This document shows, piece by piece, positions 5,214 through 28,099 of a stretch of DNA of 64,000 bases; the first letter of the stretch is position 1; each line of letters opens with the position of its first letter. The notes under the pieces are model-generated. The model saw nothing but the letters and a program-made list of their open reading frames with translations. It was not told the origin of the DNA and ran no database searches. The translations under genes and the position numbers were made by a program. The stretch lies in NCBI GenBank assembly GCA_036397555.1, contig DASWIS010000031.1, positions 80,052-144,051 of the forward strand. Direction: 5' to 3'. Source of the DNA: Candidatus Zixiibacteriota bacterium. GTDB taxonomy: Bacteria > Zixibacteria > MSB-5A5 > WJJR01.

Positions 5214-6004
5214 TGAGCAATCCCGAACTCAAAGACGCTGTCTGGCAGGTGCTTGAGCAGGCCGCCCGTCATCAGGAAAGCGGCGGCACGGTGCACTCCG
5301 ACTATATCATCCGCAAGTTCCCGCAGGTGAATGAAATCGAACTCATCAACGCCATCGGCGAGTTGGTCGAGGATGGAAAGGTTACGGTCAAGGCCGCCAC
5401 GATCGACGCGCATGGAAACGCCACGGCCTATCACATCCATGTGCGCGACGTCGGGGACCGTCCCGATGCGCCGCCGACTCGCGGGCCGCGCATCGCCTCC
5501 GGCAGCGTCGGCTTCGGGCCGGGCTCCGGGCCGCCGCCGCCGGAGCAGAAGCCGCCCGCCGATGAACCGAAAAAGTCCGCGGACAGAGCCGTCGAGCAGG
5601 CGTCGCGTGTCAGTGTCGGTTTTGGCGGCGATCAGCCCGCGCTGTCGAAGCAACCGCCGCCGGATGATCGTTCGGATCGTGTCAACGTCTCCGTGCCGGG
5701 CACCGTCGACAAGCGTTCGGCGATGCAAATGGAAGCCGAGCAAAACTTCGCCGACGAGATGGCGTCGTTCTTCGCCGAATTGGAGATGGCGGAAACCTCC
5801 GACCCCGATGCCCGCGACGAACTGACCAACCAATTGATGGTGCTGATGGCGATGTTCCAGATGGGCGAGACACGCGACTTCACCACCCCGATCAACAAAC
5901 TCGCCGCATTGAAGACCCGCGTCGCGCATGTCGTCCCCGACCTCGTCGGCGACTATGTCCTGCTCGTGCAGACCGCGGTCCGTGCGTGGCTGGGGCGGGT
6001 GTAA
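5213..6004 (+). CDS. hypothetical protein (structured N-domain, Pro/Gly-rich disordered linker, helical C-domain), translationally coupled to comM
   Basis: ATG at 5213 overlaps the comM TGA (5211-5213) as ATGA; low-complexity GPGSGPPPPEQKPP linker. Confidence 0.5.
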   Translation: MSNPELKDAVWQVLEQAARHQESGGTVHSDYIIRKFPQVNEIELINAIGELVEDGKVTVKAATIDAHGNATAYHIHVRDVGDRPDAPPTRGPRIASGSVGFGPGSGPPPPEQKPPADEPKKSADRAVEQASRVSVGFGGDQPALSKQPPPDDRSDRVNVSVPGTVDKRSAMQMEAEQNFADEMASFFAELEMAETSDPDARDELTNQLMVLMAMFQMGETRDFTTPINKLAALKTRVAHVVPDLVGDYVLLVQTAVRAWLGRV

Positions 6005-6020
6005 TGCCCGCTCAGGGATT

Positions 6021-6044
6021 CGTAGGGTGGGCTCAGCCCACCAA
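6021..6044. repeat. REP-like palindrome, GTAG-type (CGTAGGGTGGGCTCAGCCCACCAA)
   Basis: 5' GTAG followed by a perfect 7-bp stem GGTGGGC/GCCCACC with a TCA loop. Sits immediately 5' of the RAYT-like pseudogene; a near-identical copy is at 23461-23484. Confidence 0.55.
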
Positions 6045-6056
6045 TCCTTGACGGCC

Positions 6057-6609
6057 ATGTCAACAGATCGACGCCTCCGCATTGCAGGTGTGACGGATTT
6101 CTTCACTGTGGCGACCCATCAACATGGGCCGATCCTGACGCTCGACAGAATTCCGGAAATCTTGCTTGGGAGTTTCGAGAAGCACGGGATCGGGCGGAAT
6201 TCGACATGCTTGCGCCCGGCATCCTTCCCGAACACCTCCATTGCATATGGAAGATGCCCTCCGAATACTCCGACCTTTCCCGTATCTGGGCGCTCATCCA
6301 ACTTGGGCTCATCGAGCACATCAAAGACTTTTCAATCGTTATGAACCGTTCAGGAATGCAAGCCAGATCTCGAGTCAGCTGTGGCTACTGTGCAGTTTTG
6401 CAAAGAGATTCTGGGAAAACGCGATCCGTGACGATGAGGACCTGAGTCAGCACGTGGATTACGCTCATTACAACCCTGTCAAACATGGGCTTGTGACGAA
6501 TCCCCCGGAGTTGTCATATTCCAGCTTTCGGCGGTATGTTGACCAAGGGTATTATGAGTACGATTGGTCCGAAGAACTCGAGTTGACTGTCGAGGTCGGA
6601 TCGGAGTGA
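6057..6609 (+). pseudogene. REP-associated tyrosine transposase (RAYT, IS200/IS605 Y1 family), disrupted by two frameshifts
   Basis: Three consecutive reading frames carry consecutive RAYT segments. From ATG 6057: MSTDRRLRIAGVTDFFTV. Next frame: ARDRAEFDMLAPGILPEHLHCIW (HUH motif HLH). Third frame: RFWENAIRDDEDLSQHVDYAHYNPVKHGLV (catalytic Tyr region). Low GC (43% in a sampled line). Confidence 0.65.
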
Positions 6610-6644
6610 TAAACGCGAGCGGTGTTTCGCAGAATGGGACATCG

Positions 6645-6661
6645 GTGGGCTGAGACCACCT
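6645..6661. repeat. degenerate REP-like palindrome (GGTGGGCTGAGACCACC) 3' of the RAYT pseudogene
   Basis: GGTGG...CCACC arms around GCTGAGA; resembles the 6021-6044 REP core but lacks GTAG. Confidence 0.3.
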
Positions 6662-18923: not shown

Positions 18924-20435
18924 ATGGCACTGAAACCTGAAGAAGTCTCCTCGGTCATCGCGCAGGAGATCGACAAATACGAAAGCAAGCTCGACATGGA
19001 GTCGGTTGGCACCGTGCTGCAGGTCGGCGACGGCATCGCCCGCGTCTGGGGACTCGAAGACGCGATGATGTCCGAGCTGGTTGTCTTCCCCGGCGACATC
19101 ATGGGGATGATCCTCAACCTCGAGGAAGACAACGTCGGCTGCGCCATCTTCGGCACCGACCGCATGATCAAAGAGGGCGACACCGTCCGTCGCACCGGCA
19201 AAGTCGCACAGGTCCCGGTCGGCGATGCACTCATCGGCCGCGTGGTCAATCCGCTGGGACAGCCGCTCGACGGTGCCGGGCCCGTTGTCACCGACAAGTT
19301 CCGCCCGCTCGAGGGCAATGCCCCTTCGGTGATCGACCGCCAGCCGGTCAAAGAGCCGGTGCAGACCGGGCTGAAGGCGATCGATTCGATGATTCCGATC
19401 GGACGCGGCCAGCGCGAACTGATCATCGGCGACCGACAGACCGGCAAGACCGCCATCGCCATCGACACGATCATCAATCAAAAAGGCACCGACTTGCACT
19501 GCATCTACGTGGCGATCGGCCAGAAGGCCTCGACTGTCGCACAGGTGGTCGAAGTGCTCAAGAAACACGGCGCCATGGAATACACGACCGTGGTCGTCGC
19601 CTCCGCGACCGATCCGGCGCCGCTGCAATTCATCGCGCCGTATGCCGGTGTGACGATGGGTGAGGAGTTCTTGCACTCCGGACGCCATGTGGTCTGCATA
19701 TACGATGACTTATCCAAGCACGCCACCGCATACCGCCAACTCGCATTGCTGCTGCGGCGTCCGCCGGGGCGCGAGGCGTTTCCCGGCGATGTCTTCTATC
19801 TGCACTCGCGCCTGTTGGAACGCGCCGCCAAGCTCTCCGACAAACTCGGCGGCGGTTCGTTGACCGCGTTGCCGATCATCGAAACGCAGGCCGGTGACGT
19901 GACCGCGTATATCCCGACCAACGTGATCTCGATCACCGATGGGCAGATTTTCCTCGAGGGCGACTTATTCTACGCCGGTATTCGCCCCGCGATCAACGTC
20001 GGAATTTCCGTGTCCCGTGTCGGCGGCAACGCGCAGACCAAGGCCATGAAAAAGATCGCCGGTTCGCTGCGGCTCGATCTGGCGCAGTATCGCGAACTGG
20101 CCGCGTTCGCACAGTTCGGTTCCGATCTCGACACCGCCACGCAGCAGCAATTGACGCGCGGCACGCGCATGGTCGAGCTGCTCAAGCAGGGACAGTATGT
20201 CCCGATGGCGGTCGAGGATCAGGTGATGGCGATCTGGGCCGGAACCAACGGCTACCTCGACAAAGTCCCTGTCGGCTCCGTACGCAAATACGAGACGGAA
20301 TTCTTGGCGTTCATGCACAACGACTACCCCGACACCTGCCACGCCATCAAGACCAAGGGCCAGATGACCGACGACATCAACTCCGAGATGAAGAAAGCGT
20401 GCGACCGCTTCGCGGGTGTGTTCAAGCCCGAGTAA
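18924..20435 (+). CDS. atpA: F0F1 ATP synthase subunit alpha
   Basis: GDRQTGKT P-loop and alpha-subunit signature; 503 aa. Confidence 0.95.
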
Positions 20436-20456
20436 TCGCGACGACCAAACGGACAC

Positions 20457-21326
20457 ATGCCCTCTTCACGCGACATCAAACGCCGTATTCGCTCGGTCAA
20501 ATCGACCCAGCAGATCACCAAGGCGATGGAGATGGTCTCGGCGGCGAAACTGCGCAAGGCGCAGATGCGCGCCGAGCAGGCGCGTCCCTATCGCGGCAAA
20601 CTCGAATTGATACTCTCGAACATCTCCGCCGCCGTCGTGCGGCCCGACCAGCCGCCGCCGCATCCGTTCTTTCAGGCGCGCACGCCGGTGAAGAAGTCGA
20701 CTCTGATCCTGGTCACCGCGGACCGCGGCCTCTGCGGATCGTTCAACGCATATTTGATCCGTCGCGCGCTCGTGTTTCTGAAGGATTACAATCCTGCGAA
20801 TGTCGAACTGATTTGCATCGGCAAACGCGGCTATGACTGGTTTCGCAAGCGCCAATGGCCGATTGCCGCGAAACATCTCGATTTCGGCGGCACCATCGGG
20901 TTCGCGCGCGTACGCGCCATCGCCGCTGACCTGACCGCACGGTTCCGCTCCGGCGAGACCGACGAAGTCCATCTGATCTATACACGTTTCATCACGACGG
21001 CGCGCAGCTCTGTCACACAGTCGCAGTATCTTCCGATCAAGCCGCACGAGGGCCGCGCAGACAAAAGCAGCGACTACATCTTCGAGCCCGCGCCCGCGGC
21101 GATCTTTGCCGACCTGATGCCGCGTTATGCGACGACTCTCCTGCAATCAGCGCTGGCCGAATCATTCGCGTCCGAACACGCGGCGCGCATGATGGCCATG
21201 GGCGCCGCGACCAGTGCGGCAGGGGATATGATCGATACGTTGACGTTGCAGTACAACAAAGCCCGGCAGGCCGCCATTACCAAGGAACTGCTCGACATCG
21301 TCGGCGGCGCCGAGGCGCTCAGATAA
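20457..21326 (+). CDS. atpG: F0F1 ATP synthase subunit gamma
   Basis: IKRRIRSVKSTQQITKAMEMVSAAKLRKAQ N-terminus and ITKELLDIVGGAEAL C-terminus. Confidence 0.9.
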   Translation: MPSSRDIKRRIRSVKSTQQITKAMEMVSAAKLRKAQMRAEQARPYRGKLELILSNISAAVVRPDQPPPHPFFQARTPVKKSTLILVTADRGLCGSFNAYLIRRALVFLKDYNPANVELICIGKRGYDWFRKRQWPIAAKHLDFGGTIGFARVRAIAADLTARFRSGETDEVHLIYTRFITTARSSVTQSQYLPIKPHEGRADKSSDYIFEPAPAAIFADLMPRYATTLLQSALAESFASEHAARMMAMGAATSAAGDMIDTLTLQYNKARQAAITKELLDIVGGAEALR

Positions 21327-21360
21327 TCGAATCGTCCGTTAAACTATCTCATCGCGCTAA

Positions 21361-22782
<1,422 letters not shown>

Positions 22783-23011
22783 CGAAGTCAGTGTGTGGCC
22801 CGGACCTTATTCACCTCAAGAGTTGGTCCGGGTTTCACACCTACCAGTGTGTGTCATGCTGAGCCGTATCTCGCCTCGGGCGGGATACAGGCGAAGCATC
22901 TGCTCTTCGAATTGCCGGCGATATGGAACCCACTCCTGAGACACAAAGCAGATTCTTCGGCCCTCGCGTTGCTCGGGACTCAGAATGACAGGTAACCGCC
23001 GAGTTTAGCAC

Positions 23012-23464
23012 ATGACCGAGTTCCAACTCTCCATCGTGACACCCGAAAAGACGATCTTCGATCAGAACGTCGTCTCGCTGATCGTGCCTGCCGCCGAGGG
23101 ATACCTCGGCGTCATGGCGCATCATGCCCCGCTCATCACCACATTGCAGCCGGGCAAGATCACGATCACTCTTTCAACTCGTGCCGAAGGTCACGATTCA
23201 GGTGTCGAGCTGCTGCTGGCAATTTCCGGCGGATTCCTCGAAGTCGCCGACAACCGCGCCACAATCCTTGCCGACACTGCCGAACAAGCGACTCAGATCG
23301 ACCGCGAACGCGCCCTGCAATCGCTCGAGCGCGCGCGCAATCGTGTCCACGAAGCCCGCACCGGCAACGGCGACTGGGATTTGGACCGCGCGCTCGGCGC
23401 ACTCCACCGCGCCGAAAACCGCGTTCGTGTTGCGGATGCGTCGCTCGCCGAAGTCGAACGGTAG
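23012..23464 (+). CDS. atpC: F0F1 ATP synthase subunit epsilon
   Basis: 150-aa beta-sandwich plus helical hairpin pattern; separated from atpD by a 229-nt structured spacer. Confidence 0.85.
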   Translation: MTEFQLSIVTPEKTIFDQNVVSLIVPAAEGYLGVMAHHAPLITTLQPGKITITLSTRAEGHDSGVELLLAISGGFLEVADNRATILADTAEQATQIDRERALQSLERARNRVHEARTGNGDWDLDRALGALHRAENRVRVADASLAEVER

Positions 23465-23484
23465 GGTGGGCTCTGCCCACCATT
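23461..23484. repeat. REP-like palindrome, second copy (GTAGGGTGGGCTCTGCCCACCATT)
   Basis: Identical to 6021-6044 except the loop base (A to T) and one 3' base. Overlaps the atpC stop. Confidence 0.55.
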
Positions 23485-23509
23485 CTGCCGCAAGTGCAGC
23501 AACGCATGT

Positions 23510-23549
23510 GCCACTGACCCCTGTGCCCCGAAGGGGTATGGTCAGTGGC
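23510..23549 (+). terminator. strong hairpin downstream of atpC (perfect 10-bp inverted repeat GCCACTGACC / GGTCAGTGGC with a nested CCCC-GAA-GGGG)
   Basis: Read directly. No U-run follows, so it may be a Rho-independent-like or processing structure rather than a canonical terminator. Confidence 0.35.
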
Positions 23550-23708
23550 CTTGAAAGACACCAATGACTAAAATCAGTGGCACACAAGAACGATTCGCTC
23601 GGTGGTCCACAGCTTACTGCGGGATGGCCGGACTCGCGAATTGAATCTCTCCCAGAGCAGAACTGTGGGGCACCGGTGCGAGCGATCTTGATTTGTGACT
23701 GTTACGTC

Positions 23709-24218
23709 TCAATCAGTCTTGTTATACATCTCTACTGCTGTGACATGGCGATCATAGGAAGATCTCAGCCGCGATACTTCCTGACTGAAGGTAATCAGAT
23801 TACCTCTTGGTCGTTGAATCAGATTGAACATTTCCTTCTGATCGAGGTACGCCCCCTCTAGTTCGCTTGTGACGGTCTTAGAGCATCTTCTGCCATCTCT
23901 GAATTTTCCTATATGGATTGGGATTGTATCAAGTATACCCCCGATCGCGTTCAATACCGAATCGGGTGTGAGTTTTCTATAGTCTTGAGAAAACCACGAA
24001 GGGCCGTATTCTGACCAAATGTAGAGATACCCCGATAAGACCGTTGATTGGATGATGTCTACCATTTGCAGATCCGTGGTGACGATGAGACACCAATTCT
24101 CGCATGAAAGAGAATCGCCCCGTCGTAAAAGCTCCTTTACGCTCTCATCGGCGGATGCCCGGATCGGTAAACTTGCCAAACAGCTAATGACCAGCGGGAT
24201 GAGTAATTTGTACTTCAT
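23709..24218 (-). CDS. secreted hypothetical protein (signal peptide MKYKLLIPLVISCLASLPIRASA), low-GC orphan
   Basis: ATG with GGAAGGA 8 nt upstream on the minus strand; AT-rich codon usage unlike the neighbours; no family recognised. Confidence 0.5.
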   Translation of the reverse strand: MKYKLLIPLVISCLASLPIRASADESVKELLRRGDSLSCENWCLIVTTDLQMVDIIQSTVLSGYLYIWSEYGPSWFSQDYRKLTPDSVLNAIGGILDTIPIHIGKFRDGRRCSKTVTSELEGAYLDQKEMFNLIQRPRGNLITFSQEVSRLRSSYDRHVTAVEMYNKTD

Positions 24219-24452
24219 GGGGTGGGTCCTTCCTGAGGGTTCTACTTTCTAATTAGTATGCCACTCATGGCAGCCACTTAGCAACCGCTCTTGCCACTAA
24301 TAGTCGGTAGATGACTACAGGCTCTCCGTCTTCTTTGGTCTGCCGCGTGAAACCGAAGCCGCCCAAATCACTACAGTTGAACTGTCTACTTGACGAGGAG
24401 GTTTACATAATGTACGCTAGGACCAGCCTCATTTGTCATGCGTTCACGCAAA

Positions 24453-25067
24453 TCACCGATTCGTCAGCGCTTCTCCGATAGCCTCAATCATTCGACCGAC
24501 CAGCTTGAACCAATCCCGCACTATCTCCTGATTCATCCAGATATCAGTTCCGACGCACAGATCCGGTATCCTTTTGGCCAGATCGTCGTCGACGCGACCG
24601 TCATTATGCGCAATGCAGTTGCGCAGTGCACAGAAGTTACTCAATGCATCCCTGTCCTCGTCGGAGAGAACCTGGGGCTGTACGCCGACGCTATGTAATA
24701 GATCGTCCGCGGATTTCCAATTCGGCTTTTCCGCTCCCGGGATACGTTTTGCTTGCGCTTCCACAAGACCCTTCAACCGAAGGAAGAAAGCGTCGCACAC
24801 CTCTCGCTCTACTCGTTCGAAGTCTGAGTCCGACTCGAAGCACACATGTCCGAACCAGAAAGTGTATTGCTTGGGAGGCTGCTCTTTCAGCGGCATCAGC
24901 GCGATTTCGAAAGCTACAAGTGCCACCTCCAAGAGACGATGGCTTTCGCGCGACCATTCAGCTACCTCCTCAGACGGTCTTGCCAATGTCTCCCCCAGTT
25001 CCTTCTGAGTTCTTTCCGCTGCCCCATCGGCCGGCTGCCCGTGTACGAGTTGTTGTGTGCCCGCCAC
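24453..25067 (-). CDS. HEPN-like protein candidate (C-terminal ALRNCIAHND = Rx4HN motif; about 200 aa, RiboL-PSP-HEPN-like size)
   Basis: GTG start (no in-frame ATG near the N-terminus); balanced composition; R-x4-H-N motif at residues about 146-152 of 204 inside a predicted helical C-terminal domain. Confidence 0.45.
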   Translation of the reverse strand: MAGTQQLVHGQPADGAAERTQKELGETLARPSEEVAEWSRESHRLLEVALVAFEIALMPLKEQPPKQYTFWFGHVCFESDSDFERVEREVCDAFFLRLKGLVEAQAKRIPGAEKPNWKSADDLLHSVGVQPQVLSDEDRDALSNFCALRNCIAHNDGRVDDDLAKRIPDLCVGTDIWMNQEIVRDWFKLVGRMIEAIGEALTNR

Positions 25068-25172
25068 ATTTGTGGCGGAATATCCGTGCCTCTCGACTCC
25101 CGATGTCCGATATGGACCTGCCCCGAATCATACTCGATCAGAGGCAGGAACTCATCGGTGTTTTTGCACATC

Positions 25173-25201
25173 AAAAAAAGGGGAGGCCCTTCGGCCTCCC
25201 C
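25173..25201 (-). terminator. intrinsic terminator of gdhA (GGGGAGGCC-CTTC-GGCCTCCCC followed by a U-run on the minus strand)
   Basis: Perfect 9-bp GC stem with a 4-nt loop, flanked by A7 on the plus strand (T7 on the minus strand) 48 nt after the gdhA stop. Confidence 0.8.
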
Positions 25202-25248
25202 CTTCGTTACGGCGAGATATTGTTGCAGGCTTGTCCGCCCAAGGCGGG

Positions 25249-26775
<1,527 letters not shown>

Positions 26776-27099
26776 TTATTTGCTCGGCTGTCTGAAACTC
26801 CCGCTTGAGGAACGGGCACCGACCGCCCAGCGGGGGGCCAATTTAGCACCCCATCGGGGCAGTCGCCACACAATCTACGATTCCGTTGGTCCGGCGCTGT
26901 CAAATTGGGCCTTTTGCACGCTGAAACCTGTCCAAATCATCTGCCAAATGCGTGGCACGTTCGGGCTTAGTCGGTGTATCACACACAGATCGGTCGTAGG
27001 TCCCCTTTTGGGGGGCGGACCGGGACTTTAGACCTTGCCTGCCGGTAGGGCGCCGGGTTTATTCCGCAGAACTCTGGACAGATTAAATGGAGGCAAAAG

Positions 27100-27993
27100 A
27101 TGCGTAGGTTGAGAGTCTTCTTGGTGTTGGGTCTGATCGTTGGGTTTACGACGACGGCCGCATCGCAATCCGACACCGCAAAGGACACCACGATGAAGTC
27201 GGCCCCGTCCGAAGCACCGACAACGGCCGCGACGTCAGCACAGATGAGCGACACCGCCGGGAGAATCTCAGACACGGCGGCGAAGATAACGGATACGACG
27301 CCGAAGACGGCTGATACGGCGGCGGCTTCCGCCCAAGACGAGGCGCAGGACACGACGGTGTCTGAGGCGGTGCAGGAAGCCAAAGAAGCCGAGATGGAAG
27401 GCGCAACTGACCAGGGGGCCGCTGAGTCTCCGGACACGACCATGACAGAGGAGACGCCAATGACCGAGGCCGCCGATCCCAGCGCGCCGTACGCCGATGT
27501 CAAGTTTGCCAGCGGCGAAAAGCCGCGCATCCGCATGGAGACCTCAATGGGCACGGTCGTGCTGGAATTGTGGCCCGATGTCGCCCCAAAGCATTGCCAG
27601 AGCTTCGTCTACCTGACCAACAAGGGCTTCTACGACTCGCTGACCTTCCACCGCATCGTGCCGAATTACGTGATTCAGGGCGGCGACCCGGTCGGCAATG
27701 GCACTGGCGGTCCGGGCTACAATGTGCCCGCCGAGTTCAACAGCAATCTCCATGAGGACGGGGTCCTCTCGATGGCGCGCGCTCCCGATCCGAATTCCGC
27801 CGGTTCGCAATTCTTCATTTGCCTGGGACGGCTGACGTCGCTGGATAACCAATACACGGTCTTCGGCAAAGTGGTTGAGGGGTTGGACGTGGTGCACAAG
27901 ATCGAAAAGGTCCCCGTCAACAACGAGCGCCCGGTGACCCCGGTCGTCATGACCAAAGTGGAAGTGGTCGCAGCGGCGGCTCCATCAGAGTGA
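27100..27993 (+). CDS. cyclophilin-type peptidyl-prolyl cis-trans isomerase, exported, with a long acidic Thr/Ala/Asp-rich low-complexity linker
   Basis: GGAGG RBS; signal peptide; C-terminal 165 aa HRIVPNYVIQGGDP...SQFFI cyclophilin fold; residues about 25-130 are repetitive (DTAGRISDTAAKITDTTPKTADTAAAS). Confidence 0.8.
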   Translation: MRRLRVFLVLGLIVGFTTTAASQSDTAKDTTMKSAPSEAPTTAATSAQMSDTAGRISDTAAKITDTTPKTADTAAASAQDEAQDTTVSEAVQEAKEAEMEGATDQGAAESPDTTMTEETPMTEAADPSAPYADVKFASGEKPRIRMETSMGTVVLELWPDVAPKHCQSFVYLTNKGFYDSLTFHRIVPNYVIQGGDPVGNGTGGPGYNVPAEFNSNLHEDGVLSMARAPDPNSAGSQFFICLGRLTSLDNQYTVFGKVVEGLDVVHKIEKVPVNNERPVTPVVMTKVEVVAAAAPSE

Positions 27994-28099
27994 GTATTGC
28001 TGCACCGACGGTTTATGCGGGCGGGCTGGTTGCCAAAACAGCCCGCCCGTTGTGTCTTATCATTGGGGAGCGTCTCGCGATCGCCGTTGTACGGATCAG

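What the first reader, a model, noticed from the sequence alone, without database searches (positions are those of the whole stretch)
23560..25215. Low-GC islet between the convergent atp operon and gdhA, carrying a secreted orphan plus an HEPN-like gene
Two essential, highly conserved transcription units converge here (atpC from the left, gdhA from the right). Between them the GC content drops sharply: sampled lines are 40% and 50% against 77% in gdhA. The segment carries two minus-strand genes with no housekeeping relatives. The left edge is marked by a GTAG-type REP palindrome and a 10-bp perfect hairpin; the right edge is the gdhA terminator. This is the classic footprint of horizontally acquired accessory DNA at a convergent-terminator insertion hotspot. 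The cargo (an Rx4HN protein plus a small exported protein) is not a textbook pair, so it could be an undescribed toxin or abortive-infection-type module.
Basis: partly seen in the sequence, partly recalled or inferred. Interest (0 to 1): 0.75.

Follow-up and report, generated by a model that had tools for sequence, protein, structure and literature searches.

The report
Strain-variable islet carrying a solo HEPN gene
A 1.7-kb piece of foreign, low-GC DNA sits between the ATP-synthase operon and gdhA of an uncultured Zixibacteria strain, carrying a rare stand-alone HEPN (predicted RNase) gene and an unrelated exported orphan gene, in a slot where a sister strain carries a restriction-modification system; this is a typical defence-type hotspot with a new but unsurprising cargo.

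Summary
Window 23441-25179 (1739 bp) has 51.8% GC against 60.5 +/- 2.0%, the lowest stretch in the 64 kb (z = -4.4). Both genes use atypical codons.

A sister strain has flanks 96.9% identical and the same atp...atpC | X | gdhA-ppi-dxr order. Its slot holds a BsoBI-type restriction enzyme plus methyltransferase. Homology breaks at the atpC stop/REP element and at the base of the gdhA terminator. More distant Zixibacteria go straight from atpC to ppi, so gdhA is itself an older insertion.

Gene 2 (23709-24218, minus strand) is a true ORFan with a Sec signal peptide and 46% GC. It is never found beside other family members, so the proposed two-gene module is not supported.

Verdict: a new member of a known kind, of moderate to low interest.

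The parts
23012..23464 (+). atpC (ATP synthase epsilon subunit), the conserved left flank. Its last ~8 codons already differ from the sister strain.
   Evidence: ORF. Pfam ATP-synt_DE. 100% identical to a protein of a Zixibacteria MAG. Homology with L025 ends at 23440.
23441..25179 (.). Strain-specific cassette (1739 bp, 51.8% GC). A sister strain has an unrelated 2542-bp R-M cassette in its place.
   Evidence: blastn breakpoints and junction alignments. GC z = -4.4. No cross-similarity between the two cassettes.
23461..23481 (+). REP element (GTAG head plus 7-bp palindrome) overlapping the atpC stop codon. The sister strain keeps a degenerate 5' half, so the left breakpoint lies at or within this REP.
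   Evidence: 3 loci in the window, 7 strand matches against 0.2 expected. A RAYT pseudogene lies between the other two copies. Alignment.
23507..23584 (.). Strong hairpin region between the convergent atpC and orphan genes. It has a 10-bp perfect stem (23510-23519 / 23540-23549) and an alternative 11-bp partner at 23574-23584. There is no U-tract on either strand. It is probably a bidirectional 3'-end structure.
   Evidence: I7, I10. Fold z-scores of -3.7 on the plus strand and -4.8 on the minus strand. Not repeated elsewhere in the window.
23709..24218 (-). ORFan of 169 aa with a Sec-type signal peptide (MKYKLLIPLVISCLASLPIRASA|DES). The mature protein is ~146 aa, acidic (pI 5.4) and predicted all-helical. 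The gene has 46% GC and GC3 of 0.51.
   Evidence: only itself among 5.8 billion proteins; no family; no plasmid or viral hit; low-reliability four-helix-bundle model with only generic matches.
24219..24452 (-). 234-bp spacer between the two genes. It contains the direct repeats ATGAGTGGCA and ATTAGTGGCA, 33 bp apart and 41-83 nt upstream of the orphan ATG, and the SD sequence GGAAGGA. No terminator, tandem repeat or Rfam match was found.
   Evidence: motif TGCCACTNAT found 3 times against 0.28 expected.
24453..25067 (-). Solo HEPN-superfamily gene. The longest ORF gives 204 aa from GTG 25067. The probable true start is TTG 24986, preceded by GGGGGAG, giving 177 aa like the homologues. Catalytic constellation: E103-x3-K107 and R149-N150-x3-H154.
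   Evidence: family and conservation; AF2 pLDDT 89.5; residues 1-30 have low confidence; HEPN structural matches; weak hits to many HEPN models; start.
25176..25205 (-). gdhA intrinsic terminator (13-bp stem, GC-rich, T-run). The hairpin is conserved in the sister strain, but the T-run side is not. This is the right breakpoint.
25249..26724 (-). gdhA (glutamate dehydrogenase), the right flank. Both strains share it, but more distant relatives lack it at this locus.

Best explanation
Window 23441-25179 is a strain-specific accessory cassette in a recombination/insertion hotspot of an uncultured Zixibacteria population. The slot lies between the REP-tagged 3' end of atpC and the gdhA terminator.

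Shown:
- The cassette is compositionally foreign.
- A strain of the same species-level group (flanks 97% identical) has an unrelated BsoBI-type restriction-modification cassette in its place.
- The ancestral arrangement is atpC-ppi, with neither gdhA nor any cargo.

The functional cargo is a stand-alone HEPN-superfamily protein of a rare, uncurated family.

Inferred:
- It is a latent, metal-independent endoribonuclease. Its R-N-x3-H and E-x3-K residues would form a composite active site in a homo-oligomer.
- It acts as a single-protein abortive-infection or toxin effector that is switched on by an infection or stress cue. It would work like solo HEPN defence proteins such as HepS or the AbiV and AbiD/F-type proteins, without being a member of those families.
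- It spreads as a single-gene low-GC islet.
- The neighbouring exported ORFan is an independent passenger of different origin, a small periplasmic or surface helical protein and conceivably a superinfection-exclusion-type factor. It is not a partner of the HEPN protein.
- Cassettes are probably exchanged between strains by homologous recombination through the conserved flanks, because no integrase, transposase or target duplication is present.
For: Hotspot:
- Flanks are 96.9% identical to L025. Homology breaks at 23440 and 25180, and a 2542-bp cassette lies in between.
- That cassette encodes Endonuc-BsobI (E = 3e-78) and a type II MTase (E = 1.7e-139).
- Four distant relatives have atpC-ppi-dxr-rseP.

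Foreignness:
- GC z = -4.4. GC3 and CAI are outliers.

HEPN assignment:
- R149, N150, H154 and E103 are near-invariant in 28 family sequences.
- In a pLDDT 89.5 model, RNxxxH sits at the C-terminal end of helix 136-155, E103-x3-K107 lies in helix 80-107, and there is an insert between these helices. This matches the published definition (PMC3710099).
- 8 of 28 members weakly hit HEPN_RiboL-PSP and 3 hit HepT. Single members hit Apea, Csm6, LA2681, Swt1 and MAE_28990. 12 of 28 hit PADLOC RTasHEPN.

Solo, mobile nature:
- Neighbours differ in every context: housekeeping genes, a NucC-like DUF6602, a Mu-like prophage end, and an integrase fragment.
- The gene's GC is below that of its flanks in all four other hosts.
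- A precedent exists for partner-less HEPN abortive infection: HepS (PMC13043305).
Against: - No HEPN model reaches its curated threshold. The best score for the window protein is 14 bits against a cut-off of 23.5.
- RNase activity, oligomerisation, toxicity and anti-phage effect are all untested.
- The protein is acidic (pI 4.9), which is unusual for a non-specific RNA binder.
- No relatives were found in phage, plasmid or viral-contig collections.
- Only two alleles of the slot were found, so 'hotspot' rests on one comparison plus the ancestral empty state.
- The locus is clonal across 12 contigs, so selection on either gene could not be measured. The orphan could be a non-functional ORF.
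Confidence: 0.6

Rival explanations
1. The HEPN-like gene and the exported orphan form one undescribed two-gene toxin or abortive-infection module.
For: The two genes are adjacent on the same strand inside one strain-specific cassette. No terminator is predicted between them.
Against: - The orphan has no homologue anywhere, including next to the family members whose contexts could be read.
- GC is 46% for the orphan against 55% for the HEPN gene, which suggests separate origins.
- A 234-bp spacer with its own SD sequence and repeated upstream motifs separates them.
- One product carries a signal peptide and the other is cytoplasmic, so direct neutralisation is unlikely.
Confidence: 0.08
2. The gene is the toxin of a HepT/MNT-type (type VII) or other toxin-antitoxin pair whose antitoxin has not been recognised. 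The antitoxin could be a small ORF or an RNA in the 190-nt leader or the 234-bp spacer.
For: - There are weak HepT-like hits (Pfam E = 0.041; NCBIfam HepT_toxin in 3 of 28 members, best E = 8.9e-4).
- One homologue (L017) lies 41 bp from a solitary, convergent MNT nucleotidyltransferase gene.
- A 53-aa ORF (24970-25131, minus strand) overlaps the probable start.
Against: - No MNT/NTP_transf_2 gene lies in the cassette or in five of the six readable contexts.
- The H-x-Y tyrosine that MntA AMPylates in HepT is absent: the sequence reads H154-N-D (the role of the tyrosine is from the literature, from memory).
- Upstream small ORFs are not conserved between hosts.
- The spacer has no tandem repeats and no Rfam hit.
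Confidence: 0.15
3. The cassette is decaying junk. The HEPN gene is a non-catalytic or inactive remnant and the orphan is a chance ORF in AT-richer DNA, with no current function.
For: - The orphan has no homologues, and its structure model is reliable in only 1 of 5 runs.
- No sigma-70-like promoter is predicted upstream of either gene.
- The clonal locus gives no evidence about selection.
Against: - The HEPN ORF is full length with every family-invariant residue intact.
- At this base composition, a 169-codon ORF has a chance of about 1e-4 per start position (my estimate). It also has an SD sequence at the correct spacing and a canonical signal peptide with an A-x-A cleavage site.
- The cassette is identical in 12 independent assemblies.
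Confidence: 0.12

Closest known systems
HepS, the 'HEPN Solo' abortive-infection protein of Salmonella prophage Gifsy-1 (Nature 2026, PMC13043305; PDB 9OIJ/9OIK)
   Same: It is a small stand-alone HEPN protein with a canonical Rx4H motif, no conserved partner or inhibitor gene, and a place among accessory or mobile DNA. This is the best functional analogy. HepS is a latent oligomeric RNase that is activated directly by a phage cue.
   Different: - The window family has an extra beta-hairpin between helices 1 and 2, and a strongly conserved ERE-x2-DAFFLRLKG helix.
- Only one of six contexts is a prophage.
- The trigger, target and oligomeric state are unknown.
HepT/MntA type VII toxin-antitoxin toxins (Pfam PF01934; PDB 5yep, 7ae2, 8xdj)
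   Different: Scores are below the family thresholds. There is no adjacent MNT gene, and no tyrosine two residues after the histidine.
RiboL-PSP-HEPN (Pfam PF18735) and the RT-associated HEPN of DRT/UG systems (PADLOC RTasHEPN)
   Same: These are the HEPN models most often touched by family members: 8 of 28 (best E = 2.6e-4) and 12 of 28 (best E = 7.9e-4).
   Different: All hits are sub-threshold and cover only the C-terminal motif region. No L-PSP or reverse-transcriptase gene is nearby in any context.
Defence hotspots: variable cargo between conserved core genes, as described for P2/P4 hotspots and E. coli pangenome islands (PMC9122126 and PMC9519451, listed)
   Same: The flanks are conserved, related strains carry alternative unrelated cargos, and one cargo is a classical defence system (R-M). 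The cargo has low GC.
   Different: The slot is chromosomal, lies between housekeeping genes in an uncultured phylum, and has no associated mobile-element genes. Only two alleles have been seen.

Membership tests
HEPN superfamily (definition of Anantharaman et al. 2013, PMC3710099) | Conserved Rx4-6H motif | tested here: met
   R149-N-C-I-A-H154. R149 and H154 are present in at least 90% of 28 family sequences.
HEPN superfamily (definition of Anantharaman et al. 2013, PMC3710099) | Polar residue (N, D or H) immediately after the arginine | tested here: met
   N150 is near-invariant. The criterion is quoted.
HEPN superfamily (definition of Anantharaman et al. 2013, PMC3710099) | [quoted passage not shown] | tested here: met
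   In the AF2 model, helix 136-155 ends with the motif, and helix 80-107 carries E103-A-Q-A-K107. E103 is near-invariant.
HEPN superfamily (definition of Anantharaman et al. 2013, PMC3710099) | Four-helix up-down bundle with an insert between helices 2 and 3, and fold similarity to solved HEPN domains | tested here: inconclusive
   [not shown]
HEPN superfamily (definition of Anantharaman et al. 2013, PMC3710099) | Significant match to a curated HEPN profile | tested here: not met
   All Pfam, NCBIfam and PADLOC hits fall below the cut-offs. However, hits to seven different HEPN Pfam models recur across members.
HEPN superfamily (definition of Anantharaman et al. 2013, PMC3710099) | Metal-independent RNase activity | not testable with these tools
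   Requires biochemistry.
HepT/MntA type VII toxin-antitoxin system | Adjacent MNT (NTP_transf_2) antitoxin gene | tested here: not met
   None in the cassette or in five of six contexts. Only L017 has a convergent solitary MNT gene.
HepT/MntA type VII toxin-antitoxin system | HepT profile above threshold, and an RX4HXY motif with the AMPylated tyrosine | tested here: not met
   14 bits against 23.5 (Pfam) and 11.5 against 60 (NCBIfam). The sequence after H154 is N-D-G.
HepS-like solo HEPN abortive-infection proteins | Stand-alone HEPN gene with no conserved neighbouring partner | tested here: met
   Six contexts with six different neighbourhoods.
HepS-like solo HEPN abortive-infection proteins | Sequence or structural homology to HepS (9OIJ) | tested here: not met
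   [not shown]
HepS-like solo HEPN abortive-infection proteins | Anti-phage abortive-infection phenotype triggered by a phage protein | not testable with these tools
   The host is uncultured. Heterologous assays are needed.
Defence or variable-cargo hotspot | Conserved flanks with alternative unrelated cargos in close relatives, at least one being a known defence system | tested here: met
   The window cassette against the L025 BsoBI R-M cassette, with flanks 96.9% identical. An empty ancestral state is seen in 4 relatives.
REP/RAYT repeat system (left-edge palindrome) | GTAG-headed palindrome present in several copies, plus a REP-associated tyrosine transposase in the genome | tested here: met
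   3 loci. Three frame fragments at 5928-6609 map to consecutive parts of NF047646 REP_Tyr_transpos (E = 7e-14, 5e-7 and 0.2).

The most novel reading that the evidence does not exclude
The 177-aa protein founds a new single-protein abortive-infection family. In this reading an HEPN RNase core is gated by a family-specific helix-1/beta-hairpin/helix-2 module that senses a phage component. The exported ORFan is a newly arisen or newly captured surface (superinfection-exclusion-type) factor. The 1.7-kb cassette would then give two-layer phage protection, and the atpC-gdhA slot would be a defence hotspot for Zixibacteria, a phylum with no characterised immunity.
Probability: 0.12. Interest if true: 0.6.

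Novelty: new member of a known kind. Interest (0 to 1): 0.35.

Why it matters
If the inference holds, this adds one more very rare family to the solo HEPN effectors. It also gives a concrete variable slot (atpC | X | gdhA) for mining accessory and defence cargo in Zixibacteria, an uncultured phylum whose phage-defence repertoire is essentially unknown.

It is also a clean small example of three things:
- A REP-tagged 3' end and a terminator hairpin delimiting an exchangeable cassette.
- A housekeeping-looking gene (gdhA) that is itself an older insertion.
- A public gene call that picked the antisense ORFs instead of the real gene.

None of this overturns current understanding. The concepts of HEPN RNases, defence hotspots and ORFans in islets are all established.

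Tried and rejected
- Pfam, NCBIfam, PADLOC and PHROGs on both proteins gave nothing above threshold.
- Rfam on 22.5-25.5 kb at E <= 1 gave no match. Tandem repeats: none. A ToxI-like RNA antitoxin was therefore rejected.
- Phage and plasmid BLAST (DNA and protein) and viral-contig scans for both genes gave no relatives. Only three insignificant Streptomyces hits appeared.
- A profile search of PDB sequences returned only a designed repeat protein and shikimate kinase, both spurious.
- I looked for an empty-site allele or a third allele. The genome contigs and metagenome-contig scans with AtpC added only the already known sister contig and distant relatives.
- I looked for relics of the R-M genes in the window cassette and of the HEPN or orphan genes in L025. 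None were found.
- The population comparison for dN/dS was not possible: 12 contigs are identical, apart from one SNP in each of two contigs.
- I searched for similarity among the unknown neighbours of family members. None was found, except that the L014 upstream gene carries its own RNIVAHN motif.
- The lipoprotein reading of the orphan (VIS|C13) was considered and set aside. The cysteine is too close to the N-terminus, and a canonical ASA|D signal-peptidase I site follows.
- afdb50 was unavailable.
- The last two context look-ups (P0012, P0013) returned contigs of about 1 kb.
Full report
**1. What is in the sequence**

The window averages 60.6% GC. Between atpC (23012-23464, +) and gdhA (25249-26724, -), the GC content falls to 44-55% in 200-bp windows.

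The gene order is as follows.
- atpD, then a 229-bp spacer, then atpC.
- A REP palindrome overlapping the atpC TAG stop (23461-23481).
- A strong hairpin region (23507-23584).
- A 169-aa ORF on the minus strand (23709-24218).
- A 234-bp spacer.
- A 204-aa ORF on the minus strand (24453-25067).
- The gdhA intrinsic terminator (25205-25176, minus strand; 13-bp stem plus T-run).
- gdhA.

gdhA, the HEPN-like gene and the orphan are therefore all on the minus strand. The true convergence point is between the orphan and atpC.

The cassette as delimited below (23441-25179) has 51.8% GC, against 60.5 +/- 2.0% for all 1739-bp windows. That gives z = -4.4, the lowest value in the 64 kb. GC3 is 0.51 for the orphan and 0.60 for the HEPN gene, against 0.70-0.82 in host genes. 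A CAI-like index built on 20 long host genes gives 0.38 and 0.48, against 0.589 +/- 0.067 for 26 other genes. The gene is 60.8% GC, and only its third codon positions reach about 81%.

**2. Source and comparative test**

AtpC is 100% identical to a protein that NCBI names from a 'candidate division Zixibacteria' MAG. The same locus occurs, essentially without any substitution, in 12 contigs from JGI, ENA and Logan assemblies.

The nearest different relative is L025 (JGI Ga0299906_10000002), whose AtpC is 92% identical. Its DNA is 96.9% identical to the window across 20001-23440 and 25180-28000, but it shows no similarity in between.

In L025 the slot holds a 2542-bp cassette (48-55% GC). It encodes a BsoBI-family restriction endonuclease (Pfam E = 3e-78; PADLOC REase_II E = 3.9e-77) and a type II methyltransferase (PADLOC E = 1.7e-139). 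Neither cassette contains relics of the other.

The junction alignments place the breakpoints as follows.
- **Left:** in the last codons of atpC and the REP. L025 keeps a degenerate REP 5' half, TTAGGGTCGGT against GTAGGGTGGGC.
- **Right:** exactly at the base of the gdhA terminator stem. The hairpin is conserved but the T-run side is not.

Runs from one SRA series carry one allele or the other: SRR8537877 has the R-M cassette, and SRR8537878 and SRR8537879 have the HEPN cassette. The strains therefore probably co-occur, which is an inference.

In four more distant Zixibacteria (AtpC 54-65% identical), atpC is followed directly by ppi-dxr-rseP. The ancestral state therefore has neither the cargo nor gdhA, and gdhA is an older, compositionally ameliorated insertion at the same junction.

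No integrase, transposase or target-site duplication is present. I infer that cassettes are exchanged by homologous recombination through the conserved flanks. The original insertion mechanism is unknown, and the REP and terminator hairpins may be relevant to it.

**3. The HEPN-like gene**

The word-indexed search of 5.8 billion proteins found only 10 relatives (48-59% identical, 176-235 aa). An exhaustive HMMER profile search of 1.84 billion representatives found 21 clusters at E <= 1e-3. The family is real but very rare.

The homologues begin 8-10 residues before the conserved Trp38, and two have in-frame stops just upstream. Residues 1-30 of the window protein are modelled with low confidence. 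A TTG at 24986, preceded by GGGGGAG, would give a 177-aa product of typical length. I take this as the likely start.

The alignment of the 10 closest sequences has 35 invariant positions. Across 28 sequences, only E103, R149, N150, H154 and G157 remain near-invariant.

An AF2 model built with the alignment is confident (pLDDT 89.5, pTM 0.78). Its elements are:
- helix 31-61;
- beta-hairpin 66-77;
- helix 80-107;
- an insert containing a short helix;
- helix 136-155;
- helix 180-203.

Measured against the published definition of HEPN (PMC3710099, read), every sequence hallmark is met.
- Rx4H is present.
- A polar Asn follows the Arg.
- The motif sits at the end of helix 3.
- An acidic residue lies within an E-x3-K in helix 2.
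- An insert separates helices 2 and 3.

No curated model is passed. Even so, family members repeatedly touch HEPN models: RiboL-PSP-HEPN in 8 of 28, HepT in 3 of 28, single hits to Apea, Csm6, LA2681, Swt1 and MAE_28990, and PADLOC RTasHEPN in 12 of 28.

I conclude, with confidence of about 0.85, that this is an uncurated family of the HEPN superfamily with a catalytically competent motif.

**4. Is there a partner?**

The surroundings of six family members differ completely.
- **Window:** the gdhA terminator upstream and the ORFan downstream.
- **L012:** alone, as a low-GC islet of about 0.8 kb between a Cys/Met-metabolism PLP enzyme gene (Pfam Cys_Met_Meta_PP) and an oxidoreductase gene. The gene has 52.7% GC against 67.3% for the rest of the locus.
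- **L014:** preceded by another small gene with its own RNIVAHN motif, and followed by a DUF6602 protein that PADLOC scores as a PD-DExK/NucC-like nuclease.
- **P0004:** at the end of a Mu-like prophage (transposase, TniB-like ATPase, Gam, Lar), next to DUF4238 and an S24 repressor.
- **L017:** convergent with a solitary MNT nucleotidyltransferase gene.
- **L018:** near an integrase fragment.

In all four other hosts with DNA available, the gene's GC is below that of its flanks.

The gene therefore travels alone. This matches the recently characterised solo HEPN abortive-infection protein HepS, which has no partner gene, is often found on prophages, and is a latent tetramer opened by a phage tail-tip protein to become an anticodon nuclease (PMC13043305). 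No sequence or structural link to HepS was detected.

I therefore propose that the protein works like a solo HEPN abortive-infection or toxin effector, but I do not file it in the HepS family or the HepT family. For HepT, three features fail: there is no adjacent MNT gene, the scores are sub-threshold, and there is no Tyr two residues after the His.

**5. The orphan**

The 169-aa ORF has no relative in the 5.8-billion-protein search other than itself. It also has none in any family library, in phage or plasmid records, or in viral contigs.

It has an SD sequence (GGAAGGA) 8 nt upstream of the ATG and a canonical Sec signal peptide with an ASA|D cleavage site. The mature protein is an acidic 146-aa chain with three cysteines. 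It is predicted to be all-helical, but the model is unreliable and its matches are generic.

At 46% GC it differs from the HEPN gene (55%). Its upstream region carries two copies of A[TG][TG]AGTGGCA spaced 33 bp apart, and a third copy lies in the downstream hairpin (3 matches against 0.28 expected).

I treat it as a separately acquired passenger. Its function is unknown. My best guess is a periplasmic or surface protein, possibly of the superinfection-exclusion kind, and this is inference only.

**6. The edges**

GTAGGGTGGGCTC[A/T]GCCCACC occurs at 6022-6042 and 23461-23481, with a degenerate copy at 6644-6660. The stretch between the first pair holds a frameshifted REP-associated tyrosine transposase. 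Three frame fragments map to consecutive parts of NF047646, with E = 7e-14, 5e-7 and 0.2.

The 244 bp between atpC and the orphan fold far better than shuffled sequence (z = -3.7 and -4.8). Neither strand has a U-tract, so the region is probably a bidirectional 3'-end structure, which is an inference.

**7. Verdict**

- **Observation:** confirmed.
- **Interpretation:** partly supported. The islet, the hotspot and the HEPN assignment hold. The two-gene module does not.
- **Novelty:** a new, very rare family within a well-known superfamily, placed in a known kind of genomic setting.
- **Interest:** moderate to low (0.35). The finding is tidy and well supported, but a specialist would not be surprised, and the host is uncultured.

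Noticed in passing
window 5928-6660: REPtron-like locus. A frameshifted REP-associated tyrosine transposase (RAYT) is split into three frame fragments that map to consecutive parts of NF047646. It is flanked by the REP palindromes GTAGGGTGGGCTCAGCCCACC (6022-6042) and a degenerate inverted copy (6644-6660). The same REP tags the atpC stop codon.
   Followed up: yes
window 22783-23011: An unusually long (229-bp) atpD-atpC spacer, also present in the sister strain L025. Distant relatives have about 20-160 bp. It is not repeated elsewhere in the window and has no Rfam hit. Its predicted fold is -85 kcal/mol, which was not compared with shuffles.
   Followed up: partly
window 25249-26724 and loci L019, L029, L031, L032: gdhA is absent from the atpC-ppi junction in four more distant Zixibacteria. 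It is therefore an older insertion at the same junction, although its composition is now host-like (GC3 of 0.81).
   Followed up: partly
window 25061-25078: A perfect 8-bp inverted repeat with a 2-nt centre, CCGCCACA-TT-TGTGGCGG. It overlaps the annotated GTG start of the HEPN ORF and lies about 80 nt upstream of the likely TTG start. It could be an operator or could arise by chance.
   Followed up: no
window 24259-24268, 24292-24301, 23573-23582: The motif TGCCACTNAT occurs three times, all inside the cassette (0.28 expected). Two copies are direct repeats 33 bp apart in the region upstream of the orphan gene. The third lies in the hairpin downstream of that gene.
   Followed up: partly
L014 5387-5929 and 6609-7514: Next to the HEPN-family homologue P0003 lie two genes. 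One is a second small gene with its own RNIVAHN (Rx4H) motif and no family hit. The other is a DUF6602 protein that PADLOC scores as a PD-DExK/NucC-like nuclease (E = 2.8e-27). Together they look like a small defence cluster.
   Followed up: partly
L017 3326-4311: Homologue P0008 lies 41 bp from a convergent, solitary MNT-type nucleotidyltransferase gene (NTP_transf_2, E = 1.4e-11) that has no canonical HEPN partner. This is the only hint of a HEPN-MNT link for this family.
   Followed up: partly
L006 4967-5781 (= window about 24438-25252, + strand): In one public assembly (Ga0214471_10000019) the gene caller annotated two antisense ORFs (202 aa and 86 aa) instead of the HEPN gene. Other assemblies of the identical DNA call the 204-aa HEPN ORF. 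The antisense 208-aa ORF has the worst codon index of all the ORFs tested (0.31).
   Followed up: partly
L025 11025-11065: Between the gdhA terminator and the gdhA stop codon, the sister strain has an extra 19 nt that partly repeats the preceding CTTGTCCGCC motif. The window lacks it.
   Followed up: no
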